Virus record (IMG/VR): IMGVR_UViG_3300009365_003824
Span: 32,001-96,000 of that record
Strand: one strand, 5' to 3'
Source of the DNA: a virus
DNA: 64,000 nucleotides
The position numbers and the translations under genes are program-made. Position 1 is the first letter of the stretch. Each line of letters opens with the position of its first letter. Positions 4,047 to 63,980 of this stretch are shown one piece after another. The notes beneath the pieces were generated by a model that worked only from the letters and a program-made list of their open reading frames with translations, searched no databases and was not told the origin of the DNA.

Positions 4047-7000
4047 TCTCTATCTCTTTCTCTACTCTTTCTTTTAGTAATCTCTTGCGAATTTCTACAC
4101 TTTTATGGTTGAGATGCTCTTTAAGAGAGGTCCACTTTTGAATAGGCAAGCCATCTCCTTCACCCCCGGTGTCTTCTTTGGATCGTTTGGTGATTGGATC
4201 TTCTATTGGAGACAATCCACCCGTTCTACTTCCAGCAGCGCCCCATGCTTGTGCCCCTTTACGTGTAATTTCGCCTCTAATTTTGTCACTATATTTACCA
4301 TTGGGTAAATCTGGGTAGCCTATTGGCAGAGACATTTCCATGAATCCAAGTCGTTTAGATGCAGATTGAAGGATTTGGATTTGTTTTGCCAATCTTGGAT
4401 CTTCAGGATAAGCTGCCAGTAGGGCTGTTGGATTTGTTAAAATGCCTCTCAATTCTGCATTTGATTTTAGCAACTCTCTAGCCCTTGGTGCATTTTCATC
4501 ATTAGCTCTTAGGGATGCAATTACATCACCAACCATTGTTTTCCCTCTTTCTGTCGCAGGCGATCTGGCTGTTGTTGCTCTAGGAGAGGGTTGCGCTGCT
4601 GGCGCTGCGGGTTGACCTTGCGGTGAAACAGCATCAGGAGTTTTTGTTTTTGGTGTAGCACTAACCCCTGCACTTACTGAAGCTATCTTTTCTACAATTG
4701 CTGGGAAATATTTATGAAACTCTTCTTTGGGAACAAAAGCTCGTTCAAATTTACCCATCAACATACCAATCCAATGCTCTTTGCTTTCAACTGAGACCTT
4801 GGTGAGATCGATTTCTTTATTTTCTTTTTTGTTGGTTTCTTGGTCTAAAATGGGCACTACCATCATACCATCATCTGCCATTGCTTCTAATTCATCTATG
4901 GCATCTTGTTGGATTTCTAATTGTTCGCTATCTGGTCCTCTTGTTAAAGGATCAGTTTTCATGGTATCGGGGGTGTATTCTCGTGCGCGAGCTTGAATTT
5001 CGCCTGCCGGAGCGTTTTGCAACACTAATTTTTCATCCCTGATTGTTTGATACAAAGTAGCAACAACACTATCGCCTGATTTCAGTTGAATGCCCTTTTC
5101 TTTTAAATAAGATTTCAATAATGAGGCGGCTTTCCTTTCAGCCTCAGCACCAGATAGTGCTTTACCTTGAAGCGATGGATGTTTTCCACTTTGGATGGCT
5201 TCCAGAATTGTTCTATAAGAAGATTCTACATCGCCCCAATTTTCTTCCATAGTTTTCTTGTCTATTGTTTCCAAAGTTGCTGCTTGACGGGCACCTAAAT
5301 TAGACCCAAACCCTTGGGCACCGTAACGTCCAACGCCTTGGAATCTGTTTTTTCCACGTCTACTATGTCCCATTGTAGACAGGGCATCATCAGACATACC
5401 GCCATCTGCATCATCCTTCTGGGCCAAGTCTCCCAGTTCTGCTCCTGGTTCACCACTGCCACTAGGGTCAGCAGATTTATTTAATGAATCTGCTCCTATG
5501 CCATGTCTTTTTAGACGTGCAATAGATGCTTGGATTCTTTGTTTTAAGACTCCCACTCTAGCAGCTTGTCTTTTGCCGTTTTTGTGTTTCTTTTCATCAA
5601 GAACATAAACCTCTCGTCCAGCCGCAGCACTGGCTTTATCATCTATCTTCAGTGGAATATTGACTTCCTGATGAGCAGATAAAATCAAACCCATAACAGC
5701 ATTTTGCACTAAGGATTCGCCATAAGTGTTTATGATTCCACGATCTGCATCGCCAGACTTGGCCAGAATACTTTGCACGGCACCCCATGCCATTCTAGTG
5801 TATTCTTTGTATATTTCTGCCCAAACATCTTCGCCTATTGCTCTTTTGATTCTTTCTTCATCTTGTTTTTTATTTAGTGCGTAATCAGTTGAGGAGTTAT
5901 TGATACCACCAGTTACCCATATTGCTTGCAACTGTGTTTGACTTGGAGTTCCATAGTGTTGCACCAAATCAGGCAAAGCAATCCTGTTATCTCTGAGAGT
6001 TTGCTGATCTTCATCATGCAAAAGAGGTATACTTCTTGTGAATTGATCGATGTCTTCTCGCGGCCTTCCATTCCCAGGATATGCTTTGTAATTTATACCA
6101 AACCCTGCTTCTCCACCGAAAGCTCTAGGATTGGTTGCTCTGCATAAATTCATTATGCTGATTTTGCCCTGGAACGCTTCAGTGCCAGCCTTATCAATTA
6201 AATCATCAAGCAATACAATCCACTTATCTGATAATCTTAATTCTTCTTTACACGCACGTATGAACTTTTTAAGGTTTTCCTCATTTCTGGGTTGCCAATC
6301 TACATCTCTTTCTAAATTAGCATCAACAGGAATAGGCTCTATTGCCAAATCTCTAGCAGTATGATCTACTAAAGGCATTTTTCTCAATTGACCTATTTTT
6401 CCTTTAACGTCTAATTTATTGAATTGCCTAAGAATGAAATCATCTTTCTTTACTTTAATTGGTGGCTCGTGTCTTTTTAATTCATCGTTCCATTTTGCAA
6501 AAATGGTTCCTGGTAACAGCACTGGAATATAATAAGCCCCATTTGGAACCTGTCTTACTTCGCCACTTCTTTCATCAGCTATCTGGTATCCTGGTAGAGC
6601 GATCTTGATACAAGGCAGCTTATACTTTAAGGCTTTGCCTCCTGCCCACGGTCCACCTGCGGGCGGTTTGCCTGTTGGGTTTTTTCCAATACTTCCATCA
6701 ACCTGAACATTATCAACCCATTTAATAGGGTAACTTTTCCCATCTGGTGCTGTCCATTCATCAGGAACGTCTCCCTCAGCGAGTCTAAGTTCGTTCACCT
6801 TAGTCCATGCGCGAAGGTTTCTTCTAATTGCCTCTAATTGGGCTGTCTTGAAGCTCCTATTAAATACACTTGGGGGATCTCTAGCGACAATTGGCTCACC
6901 AGCAGTTGCACGGCCTTGTTGCACTTCTTCATCATCAGCTACATATATTGCTTCTAGTGGCTCTGTGAGATCGTAATCGTGGAGGCCATAACCTTGTCGT

Positions 7001-50674: not shown

Positions 50675-51121
50675 TTACCCTCTTTCAGTGTTGTGTGGTG
50701 AATAAACCATTCTTCCACAACGAGAACACCTTTCAGAGCAAATCTCGTAACCATCTCTATCCCACGCATTGCCGCACCTACAAGAGTAGTGAGTGTTTTT
50801 GTTCACATTACGCAAATCTATAAAATCATTGTCTTCTGTAATGCGAATGACATTTTTAGGATCATCCCAGAAACCTTTTCCTTTAACATCTGGGATAGGA
50901 GGCGGTCCACTCTCTACTCCAAATTTAATGCAATTATACCATATTCTTTCGTGAAGATAGTAAATCACTATTTTGGCAAAGAAGTCTATTCCACAAATTA
51001 AACCTCCAACCCCAAGACTGCCAGTTAATGCCCAACCTGCTATTCCTGTAATAGTGCTGCCTATGATGCGGTAACTTATTGCTTTAGCTAGATGCCTCTT
51101 CCGGCTTATCTTTTTCTTCAT
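50675..51121 (-). CDS. DUF2061-like membrane protein with C-terminal zinc ribbon
   Basis: RHLAKAISYRIIGS..TG..KIVIYYLHERIW; CRCG..CSRCG. Confidence 0.8.
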   Translation of the reverse strand: MKKKISRKRHLAKAISYRIIGSTITGIAGWALTGSLGVGGLICGIDFFAKIVIYYLHERIWYNCIKFGVESGPPPIPDVKGKGFWDDPKNVIRITEDNDFIDLRNVNKNTHYSCRCGNAWDRDGYEICSERCSRCGRMVYSPHNTERG

Positions 51122-52055
51122 CTTTTTTAACCTGTATTAAGCCATAATACTTAGTGCCCATGCGTAATAATTTTTTCCCATAACGAGTTATCAAACCCTT
51201 TTTGGGATGAAAGGTGTCAGGATCTAGAATAACAGGAGTAAAAGTTAGCGGAACATAAGGAGAATATTGGTATCCCGCCTCGTAATACCAGAGGTTATCT
51301 TCATCATCTTCTTTTTCTCTGCCCCTTAATCCTATAAGCACAGTATCTTCGGGAAATTCCACATCAACATACAGTGGACAACCAATGTGGGATACAAAGA
51401 AAATTTCATCATCAGTTTCGGGAAATCTACCACTGTAATATTCTGATAGCATTTTTCCTATCTTGGGAGAAGTTAAAATCCAATAATCGCTACTTAACAG
51501 TGTTTTTCTGTGGATGACATCTTTTATTTCCTTGATTCTAAAATACCAACCCTCTCCATCTAACCCAGGATCAACAAGAGCTTTAGTTCCAACATTGTTT
51601 CGTAAATCTGTTGTGATTTCACGGGTTATTTCATTTGATATTTTGGCGGCTAGGTTTTCATCATCCCATTCTGTTTCTGTTTCTAGTCTTTTGGTCCTGG
51701 CAGCTATTTCTTCGCTATCTAAAACTAATTTAATTTCATCACCATCTTCTTTGAATGCAAGAAAATAAACAAGTCCTGCTGGGCCTAGAAGAGTTTGAAT
51801 AGAAACGAAATGCCTAGCCATGAGGTTAGAATAAATATCAAATACCAGTTGAAGGTCAATCTTACTATGTCCAGATGAGGTTTCGTTCATCAATCGTTGG
51901 TTTTCTAATATGATCGCCAACTGTTTTGCATATTCAGAATCTACTTTCTCAAAAGGAAAATGATCCTTCCACTTCTCAAGACAAGAGGCAGCTTCTTCAT
52001 CGTGCCTTTTTTTGGAAATCAAAGGGTCGAAAGGGTTTAGTTTCTTTTTGGCCAT
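51084..52055 (-). CDS. second gp23-family capsid protein (shortened paralogue)
   Basis: shares LENQRL.NE, LLGP.GLVY.L, SEE.AA.T..L, TDLRNN.GT, HRKTL, PYVPLT.TPV.LDP..F.P.KG..TRYGKKLLR with the MCP. Confidence 0.85.
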   Translation of the reverse strand: MAKKKLNPFDPLISKKRHDEEAASCLEKWKDHFPFEKVDSEYAKQLAIILENQRLMNETSSGHSKIDLQLVFDIYSNLMARHFVSIQTLLGPAGLVYFLAFKEDGDEIKLVLDSEEIAARTKRLETETEWDDENLAAKISNEITREITTDLRNNVGTKALVDPGLDGEGWYFRIKEIKDVIHRKTLLSSDYWILTSPKIGKMLSEYYSGRFPETDDEIFFVSHIGCPLYVDVEFPEDTVLIGLRGREKEDDEDNLWYYEAGYQYSPYVPLTFTPVILDPDTFHPKKGLITRYGKKLLRMGTKYYGLIQVKKDEEKDKPEEASS

Positions 52056-52245: not shown

Positions 52246-53016
52246 ATGCCACACCCGCAATACAACAGATGGCAAACCCCGATAACATTCTCCTCTTATA
52301 AAGAGAGAAAGTTGATCAGAAGAATTGACAAAAAATTGGAGAAGATCGCAAGGTTAGACTATTGCGCAGGCGAGGGTGAAGTGCTTAATCCATTTGACAA
52401 ACATAGGTTTGCTACTCAGCCCGTATATCATACGAAAGCCCCAAAAATTAGGGCTAGAGGGCAAATTGTAGTTGCATATCGTGAAATCACTGGGCAATAT
52501 TCTATCCCATGTGATCGTGGTTATTGGACACTTTGTAACAAGCAACCTAATGTGGATGGTGCCGAAATCGTACAATTGGTGAAATGTGGGTTGTTGCAAA
52601 AAAAGCAGTTTTATGGAATCGACTATGATCTGAATGATGAAGGCATCATAGAATTCAACCAACAACAACATCCTGAAGCCAATTGGTTCAAAGGCGAGTG
52701 GTTAGAAGTCATTGAAGAAAACTACGAGTTGTTCAATCCTGGTCTAATCTATTTCGATTACACTCGCACAGTTGTTACTCCTGCTTGCCACTTGTATCTA
52801 GCTCGCACGATGAATATGTGCCCCCCCAAGACAGTCGTGGCAGCTAATCTTATGTTGTCGGATGGGCACTCTCGCCGCCGATTCGACCCAGATTTATTGG
52901 TCGAAAATCTGGGAATTCATTTAAGATCCCCCAGTAATTGGGATGTGTATGACAAGTATTATTCGTATAAATCTAGTCATACAGAAATGGCTACTTACAT
53001 CTTCGTGAGAAAATAA
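52246..53016 (+). CDS. SAM-methyltransferase-fold protein (tentative)
   Basis: FYGID....IIE.N....P..NWF.GE....IYFDY Rossmann-like strand order; no NPPY/DPPY/PC motif. Confidence 0.45.
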   Translation: MPHPQYNRWQTPITFSSYKERKLIRRIDKKLEKIARLDYCAGEGEVLNPFDKHRFATQPVYHTKAPKIRARGQIVVAYREITGQYSIPCDRGYWTLCNKQPNVDGAEIVQLVKCGLLQKKQFYGIDYDLNDEGIIEFNQQQHPEANWFKGEWLEVIEENYELFNPGLIYFDYTRTVVTPACHLYLARTMNMCPPKTVVAANLMLSDGHSRRRFDPDLLVENLGIHLRSPSNWDVYDKYYSYKSSHTEMATYIFVRK

Positions 53017-54891
53017 ATGCATTTACATCCAGCTAATTTTGACTACTACGATCCAAATTGGAAGCCCATTACGGCTAATATTGCGGTCTTAAAAGACACC
53101 GACCCCAAGGAGTTGGGATATGGTAATCGTGACTACCAAATTAGATGCTACGAAGCGTTTCAAGGAAAAAGAAGAACGATATTTATTTCTCCGACAGGCA
53201 GTGGTAAAAGTTTAGTGCAGATTTTTAATGCTGCTAGAGAGATTATTGAATCGGACTATGAACAAAAACAAGTGTTTATTGTCCCTCAATTGAATATTGG
53301 TGATGGTTTCACGGATTACAAACACAAAAAATTGCGGATCAATGGTGAAATTTATGGTTGGGAGGTTACTACAAATTGTTGTTTTGACAATGAGCAGTCT
53401 GTTAAAAGAATCAGAGGTTTCCTCCTGAAGGATCATCCATGTAAATCATATCGAGCAAACAAGGTACTAGGAGGTTGCACCGCTGTAGTGAGTTATTCGG
53501 CATTGTTGGCAGCTTTTAATAGTATGACTCCTAGAGAAAAAATGCGAGCTATTCAGAATACTTCATTTCGTCCCGATGAGGTTCATCATATCTCTGGCGT
53601 GGATGAAGGTGGTGTTGCACCAAACCGCTTAGGAGGATTTTGTAAATTCGTTTTGGACAATGACGGTTGCTTACACTTAACTACGGCGACATTCTTTCGT
53701 GGTGATCGGGGTGTAATTCTTGATGGTCATTATCTGGATGATTTTGAGGTTTTCCGTGTCCCATTTCTTGAACACTGGGCGACGTTAAGATTAAAAGAAC
53801 TTCATCAGGACTACCTTTGTTATAAAAATAGCAATGATCTTTTGAGACAAATTCTAACTGCTGTAGCGGCTGAACCAGATAAGCCACCAATCATCATCGT
53901 TCCAGCAGATGGACAAAAGTTCTTTAAACGCACAAACAAATGGAAGTGGGTTGAAAGACTCGTGGATGGTTTGACTGAGATTTATGGAGATAGAGTTCTT
54001 GATCTTGTTACGCCTGAACGTCAACAACGAGACAAAAAACGATTAACTGCTGATGTTCAAGATTTTTGTGCTGTTGTCACTTGTGCCATTGGAAGAGAAG
54101 GAACTGATTGGCCAGCATGTTCTCGTGTTCATAACACGGTATTAGATGCTAATACTCTGCAACCAATTCAGAAACTCGGAAGAGCTTTGCGTCAACACGA
54201 AGAAAAAACCGATATTAAAATGTTTAATTATATTGAGCATTTTAAGAAGTGGGACGATAGCCCTGATACTGTTCGTGAAAAGCTATCAGATCGTTTCAAT
54301 GCTGTTGTAATGGCCTCTATGTTGGATGATATGTTTTATCCCATCCTCATGCCAGCAATACCTCAAGATAAAAACCGCGTTTGCAATGTGACGCTTGAAG
54401 ATGTGTATGGAAGCAAACGAAATGAATTAGTTGAAGATATGATGCGACGATTACTGGCAATTCCCGCATCAAATAGAAACGCTGAAGCCATCAATGAACT
54501 TGTTGATGAGATCATTGAAGAATATGAAGACGACATGTTGGAGGATGTTTCACATGACACCCTCAGAGAACGATTGCGAAAAGAAATTCTCCGTCGCCAA
54601 AACCCTAGTAGTCCTAATCTTCGTATGGATGGGATGATTGTTGATTTTGTTCGTGAGCATGGTTGGGATAAGGTTATACGAAAATATATCGCCAAAAAAT
54701 CCCCCTTTGTAGGCGTTGCAGCAACTAAAGACCTTGAAAAATTGCAAAAGTTTTTAAACAAAGGCGATTGGCTAGAGAATGTTGAACAAATTAAAAAGAT
54801 AGGACTTGAAAACATACAAAAAGGAAGTCGGCTTTATCATTTCCTTTTAAAACAACGCCGAGATTTCAGAAAGGCAACGCACAGTGCTTAA
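53017..54891 (+). CDS. SF2 DExH helicase, YeeB/ResIII-like, with a truncated C-terminal HA-like domain
   Basis: RDYQ, SPTGSGKS, DEVHH, TATFFRGD, GREGTDWP, QKLGRALR. Confidence 0.88.
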   Translation: MHLHPANFDYYDPNWKPITANIAVLKDTDPKELGYGNRDYQIRCYEAFQGKRRTIFISPTGSGKSLVQIFNAAREIIESDYEQKQVFIVPQLNIGDGFTDYKHKKLRINGEIYGWEVTTNCCFDNEQSVKRIRGFLLKDHPCKSYRANKVLGGCTAVVSYSALLAAFNSMTPREKMRAIQNTSFRPDEVHHISGVDEGGVAPNRLGGFCKFVLDNDGCLHLTTATFFRGDRGVILDGHYLDDFEVFRVPFLEHWATLRLKELHQDYLCYKNSNDLLRQILTAVAAEPDKPPIIIVPADGQKFFKRTNKWKWVERLVDGLTEIYGDRVLDLVTPERQQRDKKRLTADVQDFCAVVTCAIGREGTDWPACSRVHNTVLDANTLQPIQKLGRALRQHEEKTDIKMFNYIEHFKKWDDSPDTVREKLSDRFNAVVMASMLDDMFYPILMPAIPQDKNRVCNVTLEDVYGSKRNELVEDMMRRLLAIPASNRNAEAINELVDEIIEEYEDDMLEDVSHDTLRERLRKEILRRQNPSSPNLRMDGMIVDFVREHGWDKVIRKYIAKKSPFVGVAATKDLEKLQKFLNKGDWLENVEQIKKIGLENIQKGSRLYHFLLKQRRDFRKATHSA

Positions 54892-55843
54892 AAAATGGCA
54901 AATATCGGCACTAGAAAGTATTGAAGGATGGGATGAATTCCTTGCTAATGCTAATAATGCTGCTGAAAAGAAGCAACTATTATTGGAAATGGCTAGGAAT
55001 GGAGAGCCAAGGCCACGATCACAAAAACATTATCTTGCGGGAGCACTAAATTCTTACATCGGTAAGTCAAATAATAGTTACGACCCAGAGTTTGATAAAA
55101 AGATTAGAAAATTAGCACCACACTGGTTCGTTAGTACTGCTGCTAAAAATAAAAAACTGCTGCTAGAAATGGCGAGGAATGGAAAACCACGACCAGTTCA
55201 AACAACACAATTGGGATCAGCATTAAACTCTTATACTAAGGGTTGTTGTGATCTTGTTTTCGACAAAAAAATTAGAGAACTGGCTCCACATTGGTTTGAT
55301 ACTACTGCTAGGAACAAAGAAGCCCTTCTCGAAATGGCAAGAAGTGGAGAACCACGACCAAATTGTAAAAAGAATCCATTGGGAAAAAGACTTGTGCGTT
55401 ATATCGGTAAGTCAAGTGGTTCTTATGATCCTGCTTTTGACAAAGAAATTAGAAAACTAGCCCCACATTGGTTTGTTGACACTGCTGCTGAAAAAAAACA
55501 ACTATTGTTGGAAATGGCCAGGAATGGAGAACCACGACCAACAAAAAACCCGCTAAAATCAGCATTAAATAATTATCTTTGCGAGGCAAGCGGCTGTTGC
55601 GACCCTGTTTTCGACAAAAAAATTAGAAAACTAGCCCCACATTGGTTTGTTGATACTGCTGCTGAAAATAAGAAACTATTGTTAGAGATGGCACGCAATG
55701 GTGAACCCAGGCCAAATAGCAAAAATGGATCTCTGGGGAATTGTCTTGTGCGATATACGAATAATACTAGCTCCTATGATAAAGAGTTTGACAAAAAAAT
55801 TAGAAAACTAGCTCCGCACTGGTTCAGGAAGAATCATGCTTAA
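54884..55843 (+). CDS. repeat protein A: 20-aa leader plus 5 HA-like repeats
   Basis: GTG start overlapping the helicase stop by 8 nt; repeats LLEMARNGEPRP..LG..L..Y..DP.FDK.IR.LAPHWF. Confidence 0.85.
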   Translation: MLKKWQISALESIEGWDEFLANANNAAEKKQLLLEMARNGEPRPRSQKHYLAGALNSYIGKSNNSYDPEFDKKIRKLAPHWFVSTAAKNKKLLLEMARNGKPRPVQTTQLGSALNSYTKGCCDLVFDKKIRELAPHWFDTTARNKEALLEMARSGEPRPNCKKNPLGKRLVRYIGKSSGSYDPAFDKEIRKLAPHWFVDTAAEKKQLLLEMARNGEPRPTKNPLKSALNNYLCEASGCCDPVFDKKIRKLAPHWFVDTAAENKKLLLEMARNGEPRPNSKNGSLGNCLVRYTNNTSSYDKEFDKKIRKLAPHWFRKNHA

Positions 55844-56867
55844 AAAATGGCAAATATCGGCACTAGAAAGCATTGAAGGATGGGATGAATTCCTCAATGA
55901 GGAATCGTCTTCTGCCAAAAATAAAAAACTGTTGTTGGAAATGGCAAGAAATGGAGAGCCAAGACCAAAAAAAAATAAACACCCATTGGGATCTGTACTG
56001 ACTGCTTATACAGGAAAAATGAGAGATTGTTACGATCCTGTATTTGACAAACAAATTAGAGAATTAGCTCCACATTGGTTCATTGCTGTTGTAGAAGAAA
56101 ATAAAAGACTATTATTGGAAATGGCAAAGAAGGGAAAACCAAGACCAAAACAAGGCAAACATCCGTTAGGAGGCAAATTGAGTGATTACACCAATGGAAT
56201 CCATCGTGGTTCTAAATTTGACAAGCAAATTAGAAGATTGGCACCACATTGGTTTGTCGAACAAACTATCGAACAGAAAAAACAACAACTCCTTGAAATG
56301 GCAAGAAATGGCGAGCCAAGACCATCTCAAAGGAAATATCCTTCACTGGGGTCTGCATTAAGTCGTTATACTGACAAAAACAAATCTTATGATCCTGACT
56401 TTGATAGAGAAATTAGAAAATTAGCACCGCATTGGTTTGTTGATGCTGCTGAAAATAAAAAATTGCTTCTTGAAATGGCTAGGAACGGAGAGCCAAGACC
56501 ATCTAAGGAAATCCCATTAGGAAGAATAATAAATTATTACTTTAGGTGCGATCCTGATTTTTACAAGAAGATCAAAGAATTAGCTCCACATTGGTTCGAT
56601 AGGAAAAGTCATAAGCAATCTAAAATTGCCAAGCAGAAAAAACAACAACTTCTTGAAATGGCTCGCAATGGAGAGCCACGACCAAAAAGAAAAAAACACA
56701 AATTAGGAATATCATTGGGTTGTTATACCAGTAAAAACAATAGTTCTTATGATCCTGCCTTCGACAAGCAGATTAGAAAACTAGCTCCGCACTGGTTCAG
56801 GAAGAATCATGCTTAAAAAATGGCAAATATCGGCACTAGAAAGTATTGAAGGATGGGATGAATTCCT
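55799..56867 (+). repeat. 96-bp direct repeat (1 mismatch) spanning the A/B and B/C gene junctions; the last ~58 bp also occur at 54885
   Basis: 55799-55894 versus 56772-56867, read directly. Confidence 0.9.
55836..56816 (+). CDS. repeat protein B: same leader plus 5 HA-like repeats
   Basis: SD AGGA plus ATG, 8-nt overlap. Confidence 0.85.
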   Translation: MLKKWQISALESIEGWDEFLNEESSSAKNKKLLLEMARNGEPRPKKNKHPLGSVLTAYTGKMRDCYDPVFDKQIRELAPHWFIAVVEENKRLLLEMAKKGKPRPKQGKHPLGGKLSDYTNGIHRGSKFDKQIRRLAPHWFVEQTIEQKKQQLLEMARNGEPRPSQRKYPSLGSALSRYTDKNKSYDPDFDREIRKLAPHWFVDAAENKKLLLEMARNGEPRPSKEIPLGRIINYYFRCDPDFYKKIKELAPHWFDRKSHKQSKIAKQKKQQLLEMARNGEPRPKRKKHKLGISLGCYTSKNNSSYDPAFDKQIRKLAPHWFRKNHA

Positions 56868-57249
56868 TAATGAAGAATCTTCTTCTGACAAAAAGAAAAA
56901 ACTGCTTCTTGAAATGGCACGGAATGGAGAACCACGACCAAAGAGTAAAAAACATCCGGGTGTAGCATTGAGTAATTACATCAGTAAGTCAAGTAATGCT
57001 TACGATTCAGACTTCGATAAGAAAATTAGAAAACTGGCACCACACTGGTTTGTTGATGCTGTTGCTGAAAAGAAAAAACTGCTTCTTGAAATGGCAAAGA
57101 ATGGTGAACCACGACCGAAGTGCGTCTTCGGCCAGAAAAGCAATCCATTGGGAAGGGCGTTAAGGGATTACATCAGTAAGTCAAGTGGCTCTTACGATCC
57201 TACTTTCGACAAGCAGATTAGAAAACTAGCACCGCACTGGTTCAATTAG
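56809..57249 (+). CDS. repeat protein C: same leader plus 2 HA-like repeats
   Basis: SD AGGA plus ATG, 8-nt overlap. Confidence 0.85.
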   Translation: MLKKWQISALESIEGWDEFLNEESSSDKKKKLLLEMARNGEPRPKSKKHPGVALSNYISKSSNAYDSDFDKKIRKLAPHWFVDAVAEKKKLLLEMAKNGEPRPKCVFGQKSNPLGRALRDYISKSSGSYDPTFDKQIRKLAPHWFN

Positions 57250-57837
57250 TGCCTGAGAATCCTTAGAGAGCTTTTTTAAAATTTTCCACTTGGTATCGGT
57301 TGCACACTCAATAAGCTGAATAGGCTTCCATATCATGTGATGTGGGCTTTTTAAATAACGCTGCTCAGCCTCTCCCTCTGTCATGTAGTCCAGACATGCC
57401 TCTTGAGCTAATAGCCTCTTAGTGTGCTTCTTAGCGTTTTTAATTAAATCTATGGCTTGAGGCATAGTCAAATGCTGAATTACATGCACACAACAAGCTA
57501 AATCAAACTGTCCTATGTCCCAATTATCCTCGACCAAATGGAATTTCACATTATCTGAGGCGTAATTTTTAGAGGCGTAATCCACCCTAGCAGCAGTGAT
57601 GTCAATTCCAACGTAGGATTTAAAAGGCAAGATGGCTGAATATCTGCCATATCCACACCCTATTTCCAGAATCCTTTTCCCTGCTGTCTCTTTTTTAAGC
57701 CATTCCACAGCGTCAGAATTGACCCCATCAAGGTGAGCATCATTATTAAAGAGGCGAACCACCCCATTCAGAGCTTTTTCAGTTCTTGCATTGAAGTCTT
57801 CAACTATGTCGTAGTCTCGACCTGTCCAAATACTCAT
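57226..57837 (-). CDS. class I SAM methyltransferase
   Basis: ILEIGCGYGR, YVGID, FDL...HVIQHL. Confidence 0.9.
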   Translation of the reverse strand: MSIWTGRDYDIVEDFNARTEKALNGVVRLFNNDAHLDGVNSDAVEWLKKETAGKRILEIGCGYGRYSAILPFKSYVGIDITAARVDYASKNYASDNVKFHLVEDNWDIGQFDLACCVHVIQHLTMPQAIDLIKNAKKHTKRLLAQEACLDYMTEGEAEQRYLKSPHHMIWKPIQLIECATDTKWKILKKLSKDSQALIEPVRC

Positions 57838-58630: not shown

Positions 58631-58849
58631 TTATTTCTTCAACAACCTCAATAGTCGCTTTAACAACCTGTTGTTTTCTTTCAATAATTTGTTGTGTTCT
58701 TCTAGTAGCTCTAATAATTCTGATTTAAGATTTGGCATTTTAAATTCAGTTTCGGTTGGCTTTGCTGATTCCATTTTTGTAGATTCTAAGAGTTCTAAAG
58801 GTGATTTTAATTGCTTCAATGGCGATTGTGTTATATTTGTTATATTCAT
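58631..58849 (-). CDS. small coiled-coil protein
   Basis: ATGA-coupled to the endonuclease; leucine heptads. Confidence 0.5.
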   Translation of the reverse strand: MNITNITQSPLKQLKSPLELLESTKMESAKPTETEFKMPNLKSELLELLEEHNKLLKENNRLLKRLLRLLKK

Positions 58850-60309
58850 GCAGTATATATCAAACCACACAAAACTTCTGACTCCGTAATTTCTAATTTA
58901 TCACGACATGCCTGCCGTATTGCTTTATACTGATTTACTTCTTTTGGTGGTTCTGAGAAAGATGGAGTTTGTCCACTGAAAAAACTGTCAAGAATTTCAG
59001 GGATGCGTTCCTGATCCCAAAAAGGAATATAAAGGATAGGAATATTACGTTGTTTTAGATATTTAAGTTTGCGGTGGTCACGTTTGATATATGAATAAAG
59101 GTTTTTGTACTTGGTGTTGTGCTTGCCACCAAAATAAACAGGAATGTAATGCGGTTCTCCTTGATACTCAATCAATCCTTTTTCGGTAGCAAAATCAAAT
59201 CGTAAATTTCCAATTGAAGATTTTTTAAATCTGAATTGTGGTTTGAATATGATTTGGTTTTGTTCAAGGTATTCATAAATTATTTTTTCATTTCGAGATG
59301 TTTTACATTTATGACACCTCTTACCTTGTTTAAAATTACTAAAACGAATCTCTGATTTATTGCCGCACTTACAAATATAAGGCATAGATGTATTATTGCC
59401 AATATACTCCGTAGCAAGTAGTTTACACCCCCCATCAGCAAAATATTGTTTGACATATTCAAAGGAATGTTTCAATGATTTTGCTATTTTATTATTACCA
59501 CAATTCCTGCACCTATGACCTACCTTAAAACTACCAAAACTAATTTTTGATTCATTACCACATTCACAAATATAAGGCATTGGAGCATCTTTGCCAGTAT
59601 ATTCTGTGGCAAGTAATTTACATCCATGATCCTCAAAATATTGTTTGACACACTCAAAGGAATGTTTATTTAATTGGCTTAGCCTCCTATTGCTGCATTT
59701 TTTACACCTTTGACCTTGTTGCAAATTATAGAATCTAATTTTTGATTCATTACCACATTCACAAATATAAGGCATGGAAGTACCACTGTTTTTATATTCC
59801 GTAGCAAGAAGTGTACATCCACGATCTTCAAAGTATTTTTTTACATATTCAAGGGAGTGTTTTTGTGATTTGACCATCTTTTTAGTGCCGCACTCTCTGC
59901 ACCTATGACCTGCCTTAAAATTACTAAAACGAATTTTTGATTCATTACCACACTCACAAATATAAGGCATTGGTGTACTCGTGTCGATATATTCGTGTTT
60001 CTCAACAAGAAGTGTACACCCTTGGTTTATGAAATGTTGTCTCATTTCTTCAAAAGATGTTCTGCGTGCAAGACCACTCTTTTCAATTCCACAGAGTTTA
60101 CACCTTTTCCCATGTTGAAAATTGTTGAAATTGATTTCTGATTTATTGCCACATTCACAAATGTAAGGCATTGAAACATTAGCATTAATATATTCCACAG
60201 CAAGAAGTTCACATCCATGATTCTCAAAATATTTTTTTACATATTCAAAAGTTAATTTTTTCAAAATCCACACTTGCCTCACTATATAAATTATGGTAAA
60301 ATACGCCAA
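58846..60309 (-). CDS. homing-type endonuclease: five ~65-aa zinc-ribbon repeats plus a Vsr/DUF559-like nuclease
   Basis: 5x Y...GC.LL..EY.....MPYICECGN.S.I.F..F..G.RC..C; S..EK.I..QFRF..LRFDF..LIEYQG..H; start uncertain. Confidence 0.8.
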   Translation of the reverse strand: MAYFTIIYIVRQVWILKKLTFEYVKKYFENHGCELLAVEYINANVSMPYICECGNKSEINFNNFQHGKRCKLCGIEKSGLARRTSFEEMRQHFINQGCTLLVEKHEYIDTSTPMPYICECGNESKIRFSNFKAGHRCRECGTKKMVKSQKHSLEYVKKYFEDRGCTLLATEYKNSGTSMPYICECGNESKIRFYNLQQGQRCKKCSNRRLSQLNKHSFECVKQYFEDHGCKLLATEYTGKDAPMPYICECGNESKISFGSFKVGHRCRNCGNNKIAKSLKHSFEYVKQYFADGGCKLLATEYIGNNTSMPYICKCGNKSEIRFSNFKQGKRCHKCKTSRNEKIIYEYLEQNQIIFKPQFRFKKSSIGNLRFDFATEKGLIEYQGEPHYIPVYFGGKHNTKYKNLYSYIKRDHRKLKYLKQRNIPILYIPFWDQERIPEILDSFFSGQTPSFSEPPKEVNQYKAIRQACRDKLEITESEVLCGLIYTA

Positions 60310-60323
60310 AAGGAGAAATTACC

Positions 60324-61484
60324 ATGTATTTACAAGAACTGAACGGTATTCTACCCGCTCAAAAAGTAAAAATCAAGTATGACTGCAATGGTGGATTTGA
60401 ACGTTGTGGTCAAGAGTGGGAGCTTAAATTAAAGGATGCTCAAAAGAATTTTAAGAAGAATGAAGGAAAACACATTTGTCGAAAGTGTACGCTACGACAA
60501 AAAAATCCGATGTTCGACAAAAAGAACGTTGAAAAGATCAAAAAGACTAATTTAGAAAGGTATGGAACTGAACACCCGCTAAATTCTGAAGAACACATCC
60601 AAGAACGCCGGGAACAACTCAAAGATCCAGAATTCAAGAAGAAATGGTTGGCAAAACACCGGCAAACATCACTTGAGAAGTATGGTGTCGAACACCATAT
60701 GAAGAGTGAAGTCTCAAAAGAAAATCAAAGAAAATCAATGAGAGAGAAGTATGGTGTAGATTACCCATATCAATCCGAAGAGATTATGGCCAAAATGAAA
60801 AAACGTAATTTGGAAAAGTATGGAGTAGAAAATGCAGCATCTCGACCAGAAGTTCAAATTAAAATGGCAAAGACGAGATTAGAAAAATATGGAGTAGAGC
60901 ATTATAATCAATTACCAGAAATGAGAGAATATTTAAGAGAACACTGTACAGAATGGCTGGCTGAAAGTTATAAAAATCCGTGGGCCAAAGGAATTACGAG
61001 GCCAGAGGAATGGAATCAGAAACAGAGGGAAACGGTTGCTAAACTTATTACCGAAGGCAATTGGCCAGGAGGATTTGTGTCTAATTGTCGAGGAAGATAT
61101 AAAGCAAAAAAATGTAAAAAAGAAAACCCTCGGTTTCTATCTGGTTTAGAATTGCAAATGCACTTTTTTTTAGACAATCATCCAGATGTAGAATGGTATA
61201 ATTATGAGTCTTTTGCTATTCCCTATTTAGATCAAGATGGCAAACAGCATCTATACTTTCCTGACTTTTTAGTTAAATATAAAAATGATCCATTAGAACA
61301 CATTATTGAGACTAAAACATGGAAAGATAAGGATTCAATTACTGTGAAGTTAAAACATGACGCAGCAGTTGATTATGCAAATGAACGGAGCATGACATAT
61401 ACAATTTTATTTGATGAAGATGTGCAAGAATTGGGAATAGATTTAGAAAGTGTTAAAAATTTACCAGTAGTTGAATTATATTAA
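60324..61484 (+). CDS. homing-type endonuclease: EKYGV repeats plus a TnsA-N-like nuclease
   Basis: repeated (L)EKYGV(E/D); S.LE..YESF.IPY...H.Y.PDFLV..IIETK. Confidence 0.8.
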   Translation: MYLQELNGILPAQKVKIKYDCNGGFERCGQEWELKLKDAQKNFKKNEGKHICRKCTLRQKNPMFDKKNVEKIKKTNLERYGTEHPLNSEEHIQERREQLKDPEFKKKWLAKHRQTSLEKYGVEHHMKSEVSKENQRKSMREKYGVDYPYQSEEIMAKMKKRNLEKYGVENAASRPEVQIKMAKTRLEKYGVEHYNQLPEMREYLREHCTEWLAESYKNPWAKGITRPEEWNQKQRETVAKLITEGNWPGGFVSNCRGRYKAKKCKKENPRFLSGLELQMHFFLDNHPDVEWYNYESFAIPYLDQDGKQHLYFPDFLVKYKNDPLEHIIETKTWKDKDSITVKLKHDAAVDYANERSMTYTILFDEDVQELGIDLESVKNLPVVELY

Positions 61485-61557: not shown

Positions 61558-63033
61558 TCAAATCACAAAATTGGCAATCGAGAGGCGTGCGTAGAATTTA
61601 GCACCTTCTCTCAAAAGTTTTTTACCATATCTCGTTAAAATACCTTTTCTTGGGCAAAAATTCTCTGGGTCCAGAACCACTGGGGTCTGTGTCAGGGGGA
61701 CGTATGGTAGGTAAAAATACCCAGCATCCATATAACTGTCGCCCTTGTAACCCATTAAAATCTGCCCTTGCGGGAAGAGCGGATCTTTGTATAATCTCCA
61801 GCGAGAATTTACTGTTCCGACGTATTGAATACCCAAGGAACTTGTGAATGTCTCGGAAGGAGCGGGTGCGAAACCAGCAGTTGCGGTTTCAAAAATGGAG
61901 GCTACTTCAGGAGAAGTTACCAACCAGTTGCAACCACCACGCAGAGTTTTACGGTGAACAACATTTGAAACTTCTACGACCTTGACATACAAGGATTCGT
62001 ATTTTTCTTTAATTGTGTCACCAAGCGCGGTATTGAAATCCCAGGAGGAAATTGTGCCAGCGTTGTTTCTCAGGTCAGTGAGAACTTCACGGTCGATTTC
62101 CAAGTTAATTTCCTGAGCCAAGATAGCAGTTAATTCTGCTTCGGCGTCAAGATTGTGCTGAGATCGCAGGTCTTGCTGAGCTTCGTAGCTCCAAACGGCC
62201 TTCAATTTACGAGTCTTGGCTGCAACTTCTTCGGATTCGATAACCATGTTGATCTCAGGAAGATCAGGGTTACATTCCATGTTGTACTCATAATTTACAA
62301 GCACATAGTTTTCGCCAGGACCAGCCCCGCCACCACCAGTGTCAGACCACTGGACAACAACTTCACCCGTTGTAAGGTCCATTGAGGAACCTGTAGCAAC
62401 TGGGGTATAGTCGGGGGAGCCAATTGTTGTAAATGTAAACGCACCATTTTCACCAACACCAAAAGTAGCGACTGCGGTTGTGCCATCAAAGACGGTACCT
62501 GTCATGCTACCAGCGAGGATTGGGGTGTGTTCAAGCGGAGCATAAACACTAACCATATCCAAGCCATCATCCTGAGAGCTAGTCTCGTTCTGGATGAACT
62601 GGTGGGAGTAGTAAATATCCAAGTTTGCATCACCAGATGCCAACTGTTGGAGGGTGTTTACATCGTCATCTGGATAGCCAGCGTTATTATCAGCACCACG
62701 GGTGGCACCTTTATTGCTGGAGTATCTAAATCTCAGGTAGTAAACCAAACCAGTTGGGCCAAGTAGCGGTTGAACGGAAACAATTTTATTTGCGATCAAC
62801 TGCGGATAAATTCTACGGACCAACGGAATAGAAATTCTTTTGAACTGGGCGATGTCGCCAGTATCAGTAGAGACTTCGTTGAACAATCTCTGGTTTTCCA
62901 GAAGAACAGCAGTGCAAGAGCGGGTATAGTCATCATCTAAATCGCCTTTGACGCTCTTCAGCAAACCTGTTTTGTTCCAGAAGCCTTCGCATTCTTTTGC
63001 TTCGTTAAGAAGCCTTGAATTGCCACTAAACAT
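61558..63033 (-). CDS. major capsid protein, T4 gp23 family
   Basis: IPLVRR.YP.LIA..IVSVQP..GPTGL, AKTRKLKA.WS.EA.QDL...H.LDAEAEL..IL..EI..EIDRE, DAGYFY.PYVPL, P.KG..TRYG. Confidence 0.95.
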   Translation of the reverse strand: MFSGNSRLLNEAKECEGFWNKTGLLKSVKGDLDDDYTRSCTAVLLENQRLFNEVSTDTGDIAQFKRISIPLVRRIYPQLIANKIVSVQPLLGPTGLVYYLRFRYSSNKGATRGADNNAGYPDDDVNTLQQLASGDANLDIYYSHQFIQNETSSQDDGLDMVSVYAPLEHTPILAGSMTGTVFDGTTAVATFGVGENGAFTFTTIGSPDYTPVATGSSMDLTTGEVVVQWSDTGGGGAGPGENYVLVNYEYNMECNPDLPEINMVIESEEVAAKTRKLKAVWSYEAQQDLRSQHNLDAEAELTAILAQEINLEIDREVLTDLRNNAGTISSWDFNTALGDTIKEKYESLYVKVVEVSNVVHRKTLRGGCNWLVTSPEVASIFETATAGFAPAPSETFTSSLGIQYVGTVNSRWRLYKDPLFPQGQILMGYKGDSYMDAGYFYLPYVPLTQTPVVLDPENFCPRKGILTRYGKKLLREGAKFYARLSIANFVI

Positions 63034-63065: not shown

Positions 63066-63980
63066 TCATTTACTAATGCCAGCCAACTTTTGGGCAAGCT
63101 CTAGATCCATGTCAAAGTCTTCATTTAATTTTTGTTGATCATCTTCGTTTACGGCAGGTACTTCCGGTTCTCCACCTTCGCTGATAATCTTTTCGTCGTT
63201 TTCAAGAACGACCTGTCCTCTCCCCGTTGCATTCGCTGCCTGTTCAACTCTTTCTTTCTGTTCATTTAGCGTACGTGTATCCCGAAGGAGTCCCGCCGCC
63301 TCATTTAACTGTGATTGCATCTTGGTGTTTTCAGTTGAAAGGCGAATATTTCGACCTTCCATCATCTTCACCTGTGCTTTAAGTTTCTCAGCCTCAGACT
63401 GAGATTCTTCTAACTTTTTGCCAGTGGCAAATTGTATGTCTTCCTCAGATAAGTAATCTGATGTTAAATCTACAATCTTATCGAGAACAACTTTATGCTC
63501 GGCCATCAACGGATCGTTGGTAGCGTCTCTGTATGCTTGTTCGTAAATTTCTCGACCCTTAAGTTGCAGGAATTGATCAACTTTCTCTACGATATAAGTC
63601 TTCATATCGTTGAGTTTGCTTTCATATTCCTCATACATTGTGGATTCTATATCACTGTTTTTACCGCGTTCTTCGAGAATCATCTTGTAGGCTTCTTCAT
63701 ATTGTTCCTCAAGCATACCCTCGAATTCTTCGCGCATAGCTTCTTGTCTGTTTTGTTGTTCTTGAATGACTGCCCAAGCCTCACGGTAGCCTTCTTCAGC
63801 TACTTTTTCAGCTTCAGCAAGTTCTTTCGACAACTGCGTATATGCCTCATCCAAGTTCTTCTGGTATTCTGCCTCAAGTTCTTTTTTGGACTCATCTAGC
63901 ATTTCTTGGACAGCAGAAGCTACGTCCTTTACTTGATCTTCCGGTAGAACTTTTTTAAGAGCTTCTTGTATCTTATCCAT
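63066..63980 (-). CDS. prohead core scaffold protein, T4 gp22-like
   Basis: acidic coiled coil immediately upstream of the MCP; many LNE/ISE protease-type sites. Confidence 0.75.
   Translation of the reverse strand: MDKIQEALKKVLPEDQVKDVASAVQEMLDESKKELEAEYQKNLDEAYTQLSKELAEAEKVAEEGYREAWAVIQEQQNRQEAMREEFEGMLEEQYEEAYKMILEERGKNSDIESTMYEEYESKLNDMKTYIVEKVDQFLQLKGREIYEQAYRDATNDPLMAEHKVVLDKIVDLTSDYLSEEDIQFATGKKLEESQSEAEKLKAQVKMMEGRNIRLSTENTKMQSQLNEAAGLLRDTRTLNEQKERVEQAANATGRGQVVLENDEKIISEGGEPEVPAVNEDDQQKLNEDFDMDLELAQKLAGISK

What the first reader, a model, noticed from the sequence alone, without database searches (positions are those of the whole stretch)
54765..54945. An HA domain split across two genes: the shared leader looks like a docking helix
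Seen: the helicase ends DWLENVEQIKK..RLYHFLLKQRRDFRK..* and each downstream protein begins MLKKWQISALESIEGWDEF. Known HA consensus is roughly W...L..Y..G..LG.W...QR..Y.KG.L...RI..LE.I.GW.W. The helicase tail supplies helices 1-2 (W.. and QR..K), and the leader supplies helix 3 (QI.ALESI.GW). Inference: the domain was split, and the same helix now heads three different proteins, so each can complete and dock onto the helicase's half-domain. This would be a natural split-domain plug-in interface.
Basis: partly seen in the sequence, partly recalled or inferred. Interest (0 to 1): 0.85.

Follow-up and report, generated by a model that had tools for sequence, protein, structure and literature searches.

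The report
Split HA domain joins helicase, partners
A marine T4-like phage helicase stops two-thirds of the way through a small three-helix (HA-type) domain, and each of the three repeat-protein genes after it begins with the missing helix; relatives keep this split with a shifted break point, which suggests, but does not prove, a natural plug-and-socket joint between one motor and several interchangeable partners.

Summary
The SF2 helicase (53017-54891) ends in a two-helix tail. ORFs A, B and C each start with the same 20-aa leader, and each start codon ([A/G]TGCTTAA) overlaps the preceding stop.

The split is not an assembly error. It recurs in eight loci and at all three junctions here. Each junction has its own Shine-Dalgarno sequence and start codon.

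New here:
- Homologous cargo proteins elsewhere start with a longer module. It matches only the C-terminal half of Pfam HA (up to 27.1 bits, E 5e-6).
- The window's leader aligns in register with the last helix of that module.
- Six loci have a helix 1+2 helicase tail and helix-3 leaders.
- Two loci, including the cultured Tunturiibacter phage Tunturi_5, have a helix-1-only tail and cargo that starts with helices 2+3.
- Covalently fused helicase-repeat proteins have neither piece.
- The leader also heads unrelated cargo, for example a ParB-like protein.

Binding itself is not shown. The complex prediction gave only weak support: ipSAE 0.38, best control 0.00. The fused reading reaches only 13.4-13.9 bits against HA, below the 28.4 cut-off.

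The scan had reached the same reading on other genomes (e1-5785151, e1-5327109, e1-5818506). This report links the two break points. Verdict: the split origin is well supported and docking is plausible. It is a new variant of a known kind.

The parts
52246..53016 (+). Gene X (256 aa, no family hit). Its stop abuts the helicase start. It is the conserved first gene of the module.
   Evidence: ORF. No Pfam, PHROG or PADLOC hit. Homologues occupy the same position in L081, L091 and L094.
53017..54891 (+). SF2 helicase, 624 aa
   Evidence: ResIII 2e-07 plus weak DEAD and Helicase_C. phrog_16 DNA helicase 2.7e-16. XPB/RIG-I-like motif matches in PDB. 148 homologues. AF2 model mean pLDDT 77.
54757..54891 (+). 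Helicase C-terminal tail (residues 581-624). It forms two helices (585-595, 605-623) behind a low-confidence linker (530-582). Proposed to be HA helices 1 and 2, the 'socket'.
   Evidence: AF2 secondary structure and pLDDT. Conserved in 34 aligned homologues. Helix 2 aligns in register with positions 7-26 of the truncated-HA profile: window 4.1 bits, p 0.02; relative P0048 12.7 bits, z 6.
54868..54874 (+). Shine-Dalgarno-like AGAAAGG, 9 nt before the GTG of ORF A, inside the helicase coding sequence
   Evidence: Sequence.
54884..54891 (+). Junction 1: GTGCTTAA. The ORF A start overlaps the helicase stop, +1 frame.
   Evidence: Contigs of runs X1 and X2 cross it without change.
54884..54943 (+). 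Leader of ORF A (20 codons). Proposed to be HA helix 3, the 'plug'.
   Evidence: In-register match to positions 27-42 of the truncated-HA profile.
54884..55843 (+). ORF A, 319 aa: leader plus five ~58-aa three-helix repeats
55826..55831 (+). Shine-Dalgarno AGGAAG, 4 nt before the ATG of ORF B
55836..55895 (+). Junction 2 (ATGCTTAA, 55836-55843) and leader of ORF B
55836..56816 (+). ORF B, 326 aa: leader plus five repeats
56799..56804 (+). Shine-Dalgarno AGGAAG, 4 nt before the ATG of ORF C
56809..56868 (+). Junction 3 (ATGCTTAA, 56809-56816) and leader of ORF C
56809..57249 (+). ORF C, 146 aa: leader plus two repeats. AF2 gives mean pLDDT 89, with leader helices 4-11 and 16-21 and each repeat as a three-helix unit.
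   Evidence: The nearest ESM Atlas clusters are all PF03457 HA: score 0.89 with 189 shared features; structure TM 0.53 to an HA-bearing helicase cluster.

Best explanation
The helicase tail and the 20-aa leader are the two pieces of one HA-type three-helix domain that gene fission has split. The helicase keeps helices 1 and 2 on a flexible tether. Each downstream cargo protein starts, from its own start codon, with helix 3. Most likely the pieces re-associate non-covalently. Any leader-bearing protein (here three arrays of HA-like, probably nucleic-acid-binding repeats) can then be clipped onto the single helicase motor, and paralogues compete for one socket. The overlapping stop/start with its own Shine-Dalgarno sequence couples translation, so the first partner is made next to the new helicase tail. 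Shown: the sequences, their conservation, the complementary break points, the fused forms, and the leader on unrelated cargo. Inferred: physical binding, competition between partners, DNA binding by the repeats, and the biological target.
For: (1) The split is conserved. The same tail/leader arrangement, always with an ATG or GTG overlapping the stop in the +1 frame, occurs in L091 and L089, whose helicases are 52-59% identical to the window's. Leader-bearing genes lie within a few kb of the helicase in L081, L087 and L092.

(2) The leader is portable. It heads four cargo types: the window's repeats, a different repeat in L091, an unknown protein, and a ParB-like protein in L089 (phrog_12047, 4.4e-15). 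L2 and W16 are invariant and Q6 nearly so.

(3) Cargo homologues start with a truncated HA module. Pfam HA matches only profile positions about 30-64, at the extreme N-terminus, in 8 of 9 proteins tested (27.1, 25.0, 24.2, 21.0 bits and lower) and in two cargo proteins of L094. At least 18 of 126 stand-alone representatives have this module.

(4) A profile of that module aligns every leader in register at positions 27-42. The top 15 of 4300 six-frame pieces are all leaders.

(5) The break points are complementary in 8 of 8 loci. Six loci have helix 1+2 tails with helix-3 leaders. Two loci (Tunturi_5 gp100/gp99/gp98 and a Paludibacteraceae MAG contig) have helix-1-only tails with cargo that starts with helices 2+3.

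(6) Fused helicase-repeat proteins (P0019, P0020, P0024, P0060, P0124, P0187) have neither tail nor leader.

(7) Complex prediction of helicase 568-624 with ORF C 1-83 gave ipSAE 0.38 (runs 0.38, 0.38, 0.37), best of 3 controls 0.00. This mark was reached by 58 of 80 solved complexes and 2 of 110 mismatched pairs. At 0.60 or under it was reached by only 7 of those 80 and by both mismatches that passed, so the pass is weak. The runs agree in at least 85% of contacts, and partner pLDDT is at least 72. My own alignments were used, so the counts hold only roughly.

(8) The AF2 helicase model shows the tail as a two-helix hairpin behind a low-confidence linker.
Against: - Binding has not been measured, and the complex pass is of the weak class, which the tool rates as more often wrong than right without a good prior.
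- The fused reading is far below the Pfam HA cut-off (13.4-13.9 against 28.4 bits). The fused readings of L091 and L089 give no HA hit.
- The tail's match to HA helix 2 is marginal: 7 of 34 tails at p<=0.05, and joined tail+leader beats shuffled tails in only 3 of 6 lineages. Helix 1 could not be tested.
- No unsplit helicase-HA-repeat ancestor was found.
- Fission at two sites would by itself give complementary pieces without continued binding.
- In the ORF C monomer model the leader is already confidently helical (pLDDT 76-83), so it might pack on its own first repeat. The coordinates could not be inspected.
- The near-identity of the three leader copies in DNA also fits recent duplication or gene conversion.
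Confidence: 0.6

Rival explanations
1. Fission relic with another role. The domain was split, but the pieces no longer bind each other. The leader survives as an N-terminal cap of the repeat array, as a contact for another partner such as gene X, or as a self-association helix. The helicase tail has its own role.
For: Complementary pieces follow automatically from fission. The leader is confidently helical in the monomer model. The tail is kept in helicases with no adjacent leader gene (L081, L087, L092). The complex pass is weak.
Against: A third or two-thirds of a three-helix bundle is unlikely to fold alone. Yet both pieces are conserved across helicases of 30-80% identity, and the leader is copied onto unrelated cargo. 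Both pieces vanish together when the cargo is covalently fused.
Confidence: 0.2
2. The leader is kept mainly at the nucleotide level, as a recombination or gene-conversion anchor and translational-coupling cassette that lets cargo genes be duplicated, swapped or lost. The peptide it encodes is incidental.
For: Leader DNA is 59/60 identical among the three copies, against about 80% elsewhere. At junctions 2 and 3 the identity extends upstream of the start. A truncated leader remnant lies between two cargo genes in L081 at about 4921.
Against: Between lineages the DNA differs freely while the amino-acid pattern (L2, Q6, L10-E11, W16, F/L19) is kept, for example CTA against TTG for Leu10. No RNA structure lies at the junctions (z -1.1 to +0.7). 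This role is compatible with docking rather than an alternative to it.
Confidence: 0.1
3. Programmed +1 frameshifting or read-through at xCT-TAA yields a single helicase-cargo fusion protein, so the domain is made contiguous on the ribosome.
For: The cargo frame is always +1, and the junction xCT TAA A recurs in three lineages. The read-through translation gives the HA hit.
Against: - Every junction keeps an ATG or GTG with a Shine-Dalgarno sequence 4-9 nt upstream.
- Leader genes stand free of any helicase stop in L081, L087, L092 and L094.
- GCU or ACU cannot re-pair on CUU, and no stimulatory RNA structure is present.
- A shift at GCT-T would skip the invariant Leu2, which aligns with the conserved Leu of HA 'GkL'.
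Confidence: 0.04
4. The leader is a T4-type capsid-targeting sequence, and the variable cargo are internal head proteins packaged and injected with the DNA.
For: The locus lies between gp24-like and gp23-like head genes. A shared N-terminal leader on polymorphic tandem genes recalls the T4 internal proteins (own knowledge).
Against: The leader lacks a consistent (L/I)-x-E protease motif; it reads ALE, KLE or LLE (motif from own knowledge of T4 gp21). Another protein of the same genome has a much more T4-CTS-like start, MQGFAEFFITE. The leader's homologues are HA modules linked to a helicase, including in a bacterial-MAG contig and a non-T4-like jumbo phage.
Confidence: 0.04
5. Assembly or sequencing indel that artificially breaks one long helicase-repeat gene.
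For: An A6 run lies at the junction.
Against: The stop TAA precedes and uses the first two A's, so a change in run length cannot remove it. The same junction occurs three times here and in independent assemblies. Contigs of two runs show no indel.
Confidence: 0.01

Closest known systems
SF2 helicases with C-terminal HA (helicase-associated, Pfam PF03457) repeats fused in cis; one HA domain solved by NMR (2KTA, Bacteroides vulgatus BVU_0683; Mills et al. 2013, cited in PMC12191111)
   Same: An SF2 motor is followed by small three-helix modules. The cargo repeats are nearest to HA clusters in the ESM Atlas. Cargo N-terminal modules match the HA profile. 2KTA appears among tied weak fold matches: Z 3.9, rmsd 5.7, 72 residues aligned.
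   Different: Here the first HA-like domain is divided between two polypeptides, and the repeat arrays are separate, duplicated genes. No piece reaches the Pfam cut-off. The repeats are not detected by the Pfam HMM at all.
Fused relatives of this same helicase (P0019, P0020, P0024, P0060, P0124, P0187)
   Same: The helicase core is homologous (33-56% identity for P0019, P0020, P0024 and P0060), and the same LLEMARNGEPRP-type repeats are present.
   Different: The repeats follow directly after the LQxFL helix. These proteins have no two-helix tail and no leader.
Tunturiibacter phage Tunturi_5 gp100-gp99-gp98 (PP885688), all three annotated 'DNA helicase'
   Same: A helicase (30% identity) is followed by two translationally coupled cargo genes that share an N-terminal module. 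Its cargo repeats are homologous to those of L091 (E 3e-50).
   Different: The break point lies one helix earlier. The helicase ends after helix 1, and the cargo starts with helices 2+3 (33.2 and 18.4 bits to the truncated-HA profile). gp99 and gp98 have no helicase motifs.
Phage T4 UvsW helicase and UvsW.1
   Same: In T4-like phages an SF2 helicase is followed by a small helical protein encoded as a separate ORF. That ORF was once read as the helicase's C-terminus and is regarded as its potential DNA-binding partner (PMC1524935, PMC7824862).
   Different: UvsW.1 is a whole small domain, not a fragment of one. There is one partner, not a family with a shared leader. The present helicase is not detectably a UvsW orthologue: UvsW is not among the PDB sequence matches.
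Protein-fragment complementation in general (split inteins, S-peptide/S-protein, engineered split tags); own knowledge
   Same: Two fragments that cannot fold alone are proposed to reconstitute one fold.
   Different: Here the split would be natural, would lie in a 60-residue helical domain, and would serve as a one-socket, many-plugs interface. No catalysis or splicing is involved.

Membership tests
Pfam HA (PF03457), for tail + leader | Sequence reaches the curated gathering score (28.4 bits) | tested here: not met
   No hit on the helicase or on ORFs A-C alone. The read-through translation scores 13.4-13.9 bits, E 0.07-0.1, profile 30-62 of 64. Read-throughs of L091 and L089 give no HA hit. 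PF03457 was not found in a six-frame scan of the genome.
Pfam HA (PF03457), for tail + leader | Third helix motif L-x3-(R/Q)-I-x2-L-E-x-(I/L)-G-(F/W)-x-W | tested here: met
   The leader reads LKKWQISALESIEGWDEF. It aligns in register with the last helix of HA-positive N-terminal modules of homologous cargo (profile positions 27-42). All top 15 of 4300 six-frame pieces are leaders.
Pfam HA (PF03457), for tail + leader | Second helix motif LG-x-W-x3-QR-x2-y-x-G | tested here: inconclusive
   The tail LYHFLLKQRRDFRK aligns in register with profile positions 9-24 at 4.1 bits, p 0.02. Relative P0048 gives 12.7 bits, z 6. Only 7 of 34 tails reach p<=0.05, and only 3 of 6 joined sequences beat their shuffles.
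Pfam HA (PF03457), for tail + leader | First helix (W-x6-L-x2-f-x3-hG) | not tested
   The tail has DWLENVEQIKKIG, predicted helical at 585-595. No profile that includes HA helix 1 was available outside hmmscan, which gave no hit for this part.
Pfam HA (PF03457), for tail + leader | Located C-terminal to an SF2 helicase core | tested here: met
   The tail begins 10 residues after the last core helix. Fused relatives carry repeats at the same point.
Pfam HA (PF03457), for tail + leader | Nucleic-acid binding (proposed for 2KTA) | not testable with these tools
   Needs EMSA or NMR titration.
Pfam HA (PF03457), for the ~58-aa cargo repeats | Profile match or shared fold | tested here: inconclusive
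   No Pfam hit. The ESM Atlas nearest clusters are all HA (0.89, 189 shared features; structure TM 0.53 over 131 residues). 2KTA scores Z 3.9 in the tie zone. hhalign of tail+leader against the repeat unit gives probability below 1%.
Programmed +1 frameshift site (prfB/RF2 type) | Re-pairing P-site codon, Shine-Dalgarno sequence 3 nt upstream, no need for a start codon | tested here: not met
   The site reads GCT/ACT-TAA. The Shine-Dalgarno sequence lies 4-9 nt before a conserved ATG or GTG. Free-standing leader genes exist. No RNA structure is present.
T4 capsid-targeting sequence (internal proteins) | N-terminal ~10 aa ending in an (L/I)-x-E cleavage site (own knowledge) | tested here: not met
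   The leaders read ALE, KLE, LLE or IK-. Only L089 fits L-x-E. A better CTS-like start sits on another protein of the genome.
T4 UvsW / UvsW.1 pair | Helicase orthologous to UvsW | tested here: inconclusive
   The profile of 34 homologues against PDB sequences lists XPB, RIG-I, Dicer-related and RadD helicases, but not UvsW, at E<=0.01.

The most novel reading that the evidence does not exclude
This is a natural one-socket, many-plugs protein interface. A helicase carries an incomplete three-helix domain on a flexible tether. A portable 20-45-residue N-terminal tag, the rest of that domain, lets unrelated DNA-binding proteins (HA-repeat arrays of different kinds, a ParB-like protein) clip onto it interchangeably. 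Evolution has moved the break point between helices while keeping the sum constant. The pair would be a ready-made small heterodimerisation tag.
Probability: 0.5. Interest if true: 0.8.

Novelty: new variant of a known kind. Interest (0 to 1): 0.72.

Why it matters
HA domains and helicases that carry them are common, but their function is poorly understood. If the split is a working joint, it shows how a phage can give one motor several exchangeable nucleic-acid-binding subunits by duplicating short cassettes. It would also be a rare natural case of fragment complementation within a domain of about 60 residues, with the break point shifted in evolution. It corrects database annotation: Tunturi_5 gp99 and gp98 are labelled 'DNA helicase' but have no helicase motifs. 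Tunturi_5 is a cultured phage in which the idea can be tested. The tail/leader pair could also serve as a small natural docking tag.

Tried and rejected
- The search for related loci with the helicase, or with its alignment, picked generic helicase motifs and returned unrelated helicases. The C-terminal alignment and my DNA pattern found only one IMG/VR relative. megablast to phages found nothing.
- hhalign of tail+leader against the 42 cargo repeat units gave probability below 1%, so the tail+leader is not shown to be a diverged copy of the cargo repeat.
- BLASTP of the read-through against the Tunturi_5 N-termini gave no alignment. My leader and fused profiles gave nothing significant there. 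Pfam on those N-termini gave nothing. Only the profile built from the long modules linked them.
- PDB sequence searches with the read-through and with the ORF C alignment did not return 2KTA.
- Foldseek on the ORF C model found nothing at E<=0.001. VIA-align gave only tied helical matches with Z below 5.
- ESM Atlas on the helicase tail alone gave no usable hit. For the same reason it was not sent to AlphaFold2.
- PADLOC gave only weak PbeA-like motif matches for the helicase.
- No RNA holder was listed among the sequencing runs. The contigs laid are probably from the source sample.
- Searches of cultured phages with ORF C and with P0189 found no match.
- Literature searches found no description of a split HA domain, and found no paper on Tunturi_5.
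Full report
**What is in the window**

The window comes from a 105,941-base IMG/VR record. It holds T4-like head genes: a gp23-like gene at 61558-63033, a gp24-like gene at 51084-52055 and a scaffold-like gene at 63066-63980. The DNA is held by marine metagenome runs.

On the + strand five genes abut or overlap:
- gene X (52246-53016), with no family hit;
- an SF2 helicase (53017-54891), with ResIII at 2e-07 and phrog_16 at 2.7e-16;
- ORFs A, B and C.

The helicase ends ...DWLENVEQIKKIGLENIQKGSRLYHFLLKQRRDFRKATHSA*. Each of ORFs A-C begins (M)LKKWQISALESIEGWDEFL and continues with 5, 5 and 2 copies of a ~58-aa repeat, LLLEMARNGEPRP..LG.AL..Y...YDP.FDK.IRKLAPHWF.

All three junctions read [A/G]TGCTTAAAAAATGG, so the start overlaps the preceding TAA in the +1 frame. 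A Shine-Dalgarno-like sequence lies 4-9 nt upstream.

**Not an artefact, not recoding**

The TAA uses the T and the first two A's of the A6 run, so a change in homopolymer length cannot open the frame. Contigs from two runs, probably the source sample, cross the junction without change. More importantly, the same arrangement is found in independent assemblies (below).

Four points argue against a +1 frameshift:
- every junction keeps its own start codon and Shine-Dalgarno sequence;
- leader-bearing genes stand free of any helicase stop in four loci;
- the junction RNA is not more structured than shuffles, with z from -1.1 to +0.7;
- a shift at GCT-T would skip the invariant Leu2.

**Relatives**

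The helicase has 148 homologues at E<=0.001. Most are 620-645 aa and carry the same two-helix tail. About 20 end in ..NA*..HA*..DA* or ..NAR*, which is the footprint of an overlapping ATGCT start.

- In L091 and L089 the helicase stop is again overlapped by an ATG in the +1 frame. This ATG opens MLNKRQLQKLESATDWHDF... and MQLKQWQTNLLEKLDGWHEL....
- The proteins behind these leaders differ from the window's: a different 57-aa repeat in L091, and an unknown protein plus a ParB-like protein (phrog_12047, 4.4e-15) in L089. Each locus has a second leader-bearing gene after the first.
- In L081, L087 and L092 the tail-bearing helicase has no leader gene after it. Instead, two to three leader-bearing repeat genes lie just upstream, after gene X.
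- Across 14 leaders, L2 and W16 are invariant and Q6 nearly so, while the codons differ between lineages.
- No other leader copy occurs elsewhere in the 106-kb genome.

**Is it an HA domain?**

Direct evidence is weak.
- Pfam HA hits neither protein alone.
- The read-through translation scores 13.4-13.9 bits (E 0.07-0.1) over profile positions 30-62 of 64, which spans the junction.
- The read-throughs of L091 and L089 give no hit.
- The tail+leader is not detectably a diverged cargo repeat: hhalign gives below 1%.

Indirect evidence is much stronger.
- A profile of leader plus first repeat finds 885 cluster representatives at E<=0.001.
- Some of the stand-alone proteins among them have, in place of the 20-aa leader, an N-terminal module of about 45 aa of the form ..W...QRkayRdGkL(s/t)k.QI..Le..GF.fE.
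- Pfam HA matches this module in 8 of 9 proteins tested. The match is always at residues about 3-46 and always to profile positions about 30-64: 27.1 bits (E 5e-6), 25.0, 24.2, 21.0, 18.2, 18.1, 14.2 and 14.1 bits. It also matches two cargo proteins of locus L094, at 24.2 and 19.9 bits.
- These scores fall short of the cut-off because only half the domain is present.
- A profile I built from nine such modules finds at least nine more at the extreme N-terminus, at 18-39 bits.
- Searched against all 4300 six-frame pieces of the genome and the related loci, that profile puts leaders in all of its top 15 places. All are aligned in register, LtkeqIkklesipgWv against LKKWQISALESIEGWD.
- MAFFT independently aligns Leu2 of the leaders with the Leu of GkL.

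The leader is therefore, with good confidence, the last helix of an HA-type domain.

For the helicase tail the signal is marginal. Helix 2 aligns in register with profile positions 7-26. The scores are 12.7 bits (z 6) in P0048, z 4.6 in P0011 and 4.1 bits (p 0.02) in the window, but only 7 of 34 tails reach p<=0.05. Joining the tail to the leader beats shuffled tails in only 3 of 6 lineages. Helix 1 could not be tested.

The cargo repeats themselves are nearest to HA clusters in the ESM Atlas: score 0.89, 189 shared features, all ten best family-bearing hits HA, and structure TM 0.53 to an HA-bearing helicase cluster. That tool counts as a lead, not a proof.

**Complementary break points**

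This is the main new result.

In Tunturiibacter phage Tunturi_5 (PP885688, a cultured 309-kb phage) a 30%-identical helicase, gp100, is followed by gp99 and gp98. Their repeats are homologous to the L091 cargo (E 3e-50). A Paludibacteraceae MAG contig (L094) has gene X, three cargo genes and then the helicase.

In both loci the helicase ends right after helix 1, and every cargo protein starts with the helix 2+3 module: gp99 at 33.2 bits, gp98 at 18.4 bits, L094 as above. In the other six loci the helicase has helices 1+2 and the cargo has only helix 3. The roughly 25 residues missing from one partner are present in the other in 8 of 8 loci (alignments A9 and A10).

When the same repeats are covalently fused to the helicase (P0019, P0020, P0024, P0060, P0124, P0187), they follow the core directly, and neither tail nor leader is present. 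No form with an unsplit HA domain between core and repeats was seen.

**Structure predictions**

AlphaFold2 on the helicase (34 sequences, mean pLDDT 77) gives tail helices at 585-595 and 605-623, with pLDDT about 84 to 68. They sit behind a segment of pLDDT below 50 (530-582), so the tail looks like a tethered hairpin.

ORF C folds with mean pLDDT 89. The leader forms helices 4-11 and 16-21 (pLDDT 83 and 76), and each repeat is a three-helix unit. I could not inspect whether the leader packs on repeat 1.

The complex prediction of helicase 568-624 with ORF C 1-83 gave ipSAE 0.38 (three runs, 0.37-0.38), against a best control of 0.00. This mark was reached by 58 of 80 solved complexes and 2 of 110 mismatched pairs. 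At 0.60 or under it was reached by only 7 of those 80 and by both mismatches that passed. The runs agree in at least 85% of contacts, partner pLDDT is at least 72, and my own alignments were used. The tool's verdict is weak support.

**Most likely mechanism**

An ancestral helicase-HA-repeat protein was split inside its first HA domain, at two different places in different lineages. Both fragments have been kept for a long time, the plug has been copied onto paralogous and unrelated cargo, and both disappear when a covalent link exists. The simplest reading is that the fragments still reconstitute one three-helix bundle and so attach cargo to the motor.

Overlapping stop and start codons would couple synthesis of the first partner to that of the helicase. 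What the module does for the phage is unknown.

I put the split origin at about 0.8 and docking at about 0.6.

**Rivals**

The rivals are listed with their tests in the Rival explanations section: a relic without binding, a nucleotide-level cassette role, frameshifting, capsid targeting and artefact. The near-identity of the three leader copies in DNA (59 of 60 bases) most simply reflects recent duplication or gene conversion, and I do not count it as selection on the peptide.

**Relation to what is known, and to this scan**

The closest known kinds are helicases with HA repeats in cis (PF03457; 2KTA) and the T4 UvsW/UvsW.1 pair, a helicase followed by a separately encoded small helical partner (PMC1524935, PMC7824862). 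Full-text searches found no description of a split HA domain.

Other agents of this scan reached the same reading on other genomes: e1-5785151 for the helix 1+2 | 3 type, e1-5327109 for the helix 1 | 2+3 type, and e1-5818506 for the cargo-upstream order. These are unchecked AI notes, not independent evidence. I reproduced each pattern on my own loci. I add the link between the two break points, the Pfam evidence for truncated HA modules, and the cultured-phage example.

Noticed in passing
window 58846-60309 (-): A 487-aa protein with five tandem ~65-aa repeats. Each repeat holds a CxC...CxxC zinc-ribbon (MPYICECGN..RC..CG; Pfam Zn_ribbon_SprT 4.9e-07). A distinct C-terminal domain follows. It lies between head genes.
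   Followed up: partly
window 60324-61484 (+): A protein with DUF7487 (1.5e-25) and a TnsA-like endonuclease N-terminal domain (9e-10). It may be a mobile nuclease inserted next to the gp23-like capsid gene. A related gene sits beside the capsid gene in L091 (6650-7789).
   Followed up: partly
window 51084-52055 and 61558-63033 (-): The gp24-like and gp23-like capsid genes are separated by about 9.5 kb of non-structural genes: the helicase module, a methyltransferase, the zinc-ribbon repeat protein and the TnsA-like gene. This is unlike T4.
   Followed up: no
genome C1 ~99903 (-), about 3.9 kb beyond the window end: A 294-aa protein starts MQGFAEFFITE, which resembles the T4 capsid-targeting sequence. 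I confirmed only the N-terminus.
   Followed up: partly
L081 ~4921-4950: A truncated leader remnant (MLKKWQITAL then stop) lies between two cargo genes. It is a trace of cassette decay or recombination at the junction.
   Followed up: no
L095 27-1052 and 2143-3165: Two cargo paralogues share yet another ~40-aa N-terminal module (M.TRS.LSKI..G.RFL..LKKNYPGLLDKYFPVIDTAAENKK). No helicase is present on the 10-kb contig.
   Followed up: no
proteins P0128, P0130, P0145, P0156, P0261 and others: A recurrent N-terminus, MLHKVKxxHxDILKGLPEL, has the same length and spacing as the leader (L2, K4, G15, E18) and may be a diverged leader class. Many other cargo representatives start inside a repeat (for example M.ESEYLPVKKP..), either from further splits or from miscalled starts.
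   Followed up: no
L093 (PP885688 75742-77597): Tunturi_5 gp99 and gp98 are annotated 'DNA helicase' but have no helicase motifs or Pfam helicase hit. They are repeat-array proteins. The record has four places similar to gp99.
   Followed up: partly
proteins P0073-P0108: A ~750-aa class of the same helicase family, including records named as Tepidisphaeraceae, carries a different C-terminal ~60-aa repeat (..EIHDGIR.FHERTGKRPT....L..SA.AVDK.CRR.YGTTLA.EVR.VLG). Other members carry two further repeat types (P0031/38/39 and P0033/34/51).
   Followed up: no
window 57226-57837 (-): A class I SAM methyltransferase (Methyltransf_12/25, about 3e-10) converges on ORF C, and the 3' ends overlap by 24 nt. 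A terminator-like hairpin lies on the + strand at 57327-57346.
   Followed up: no
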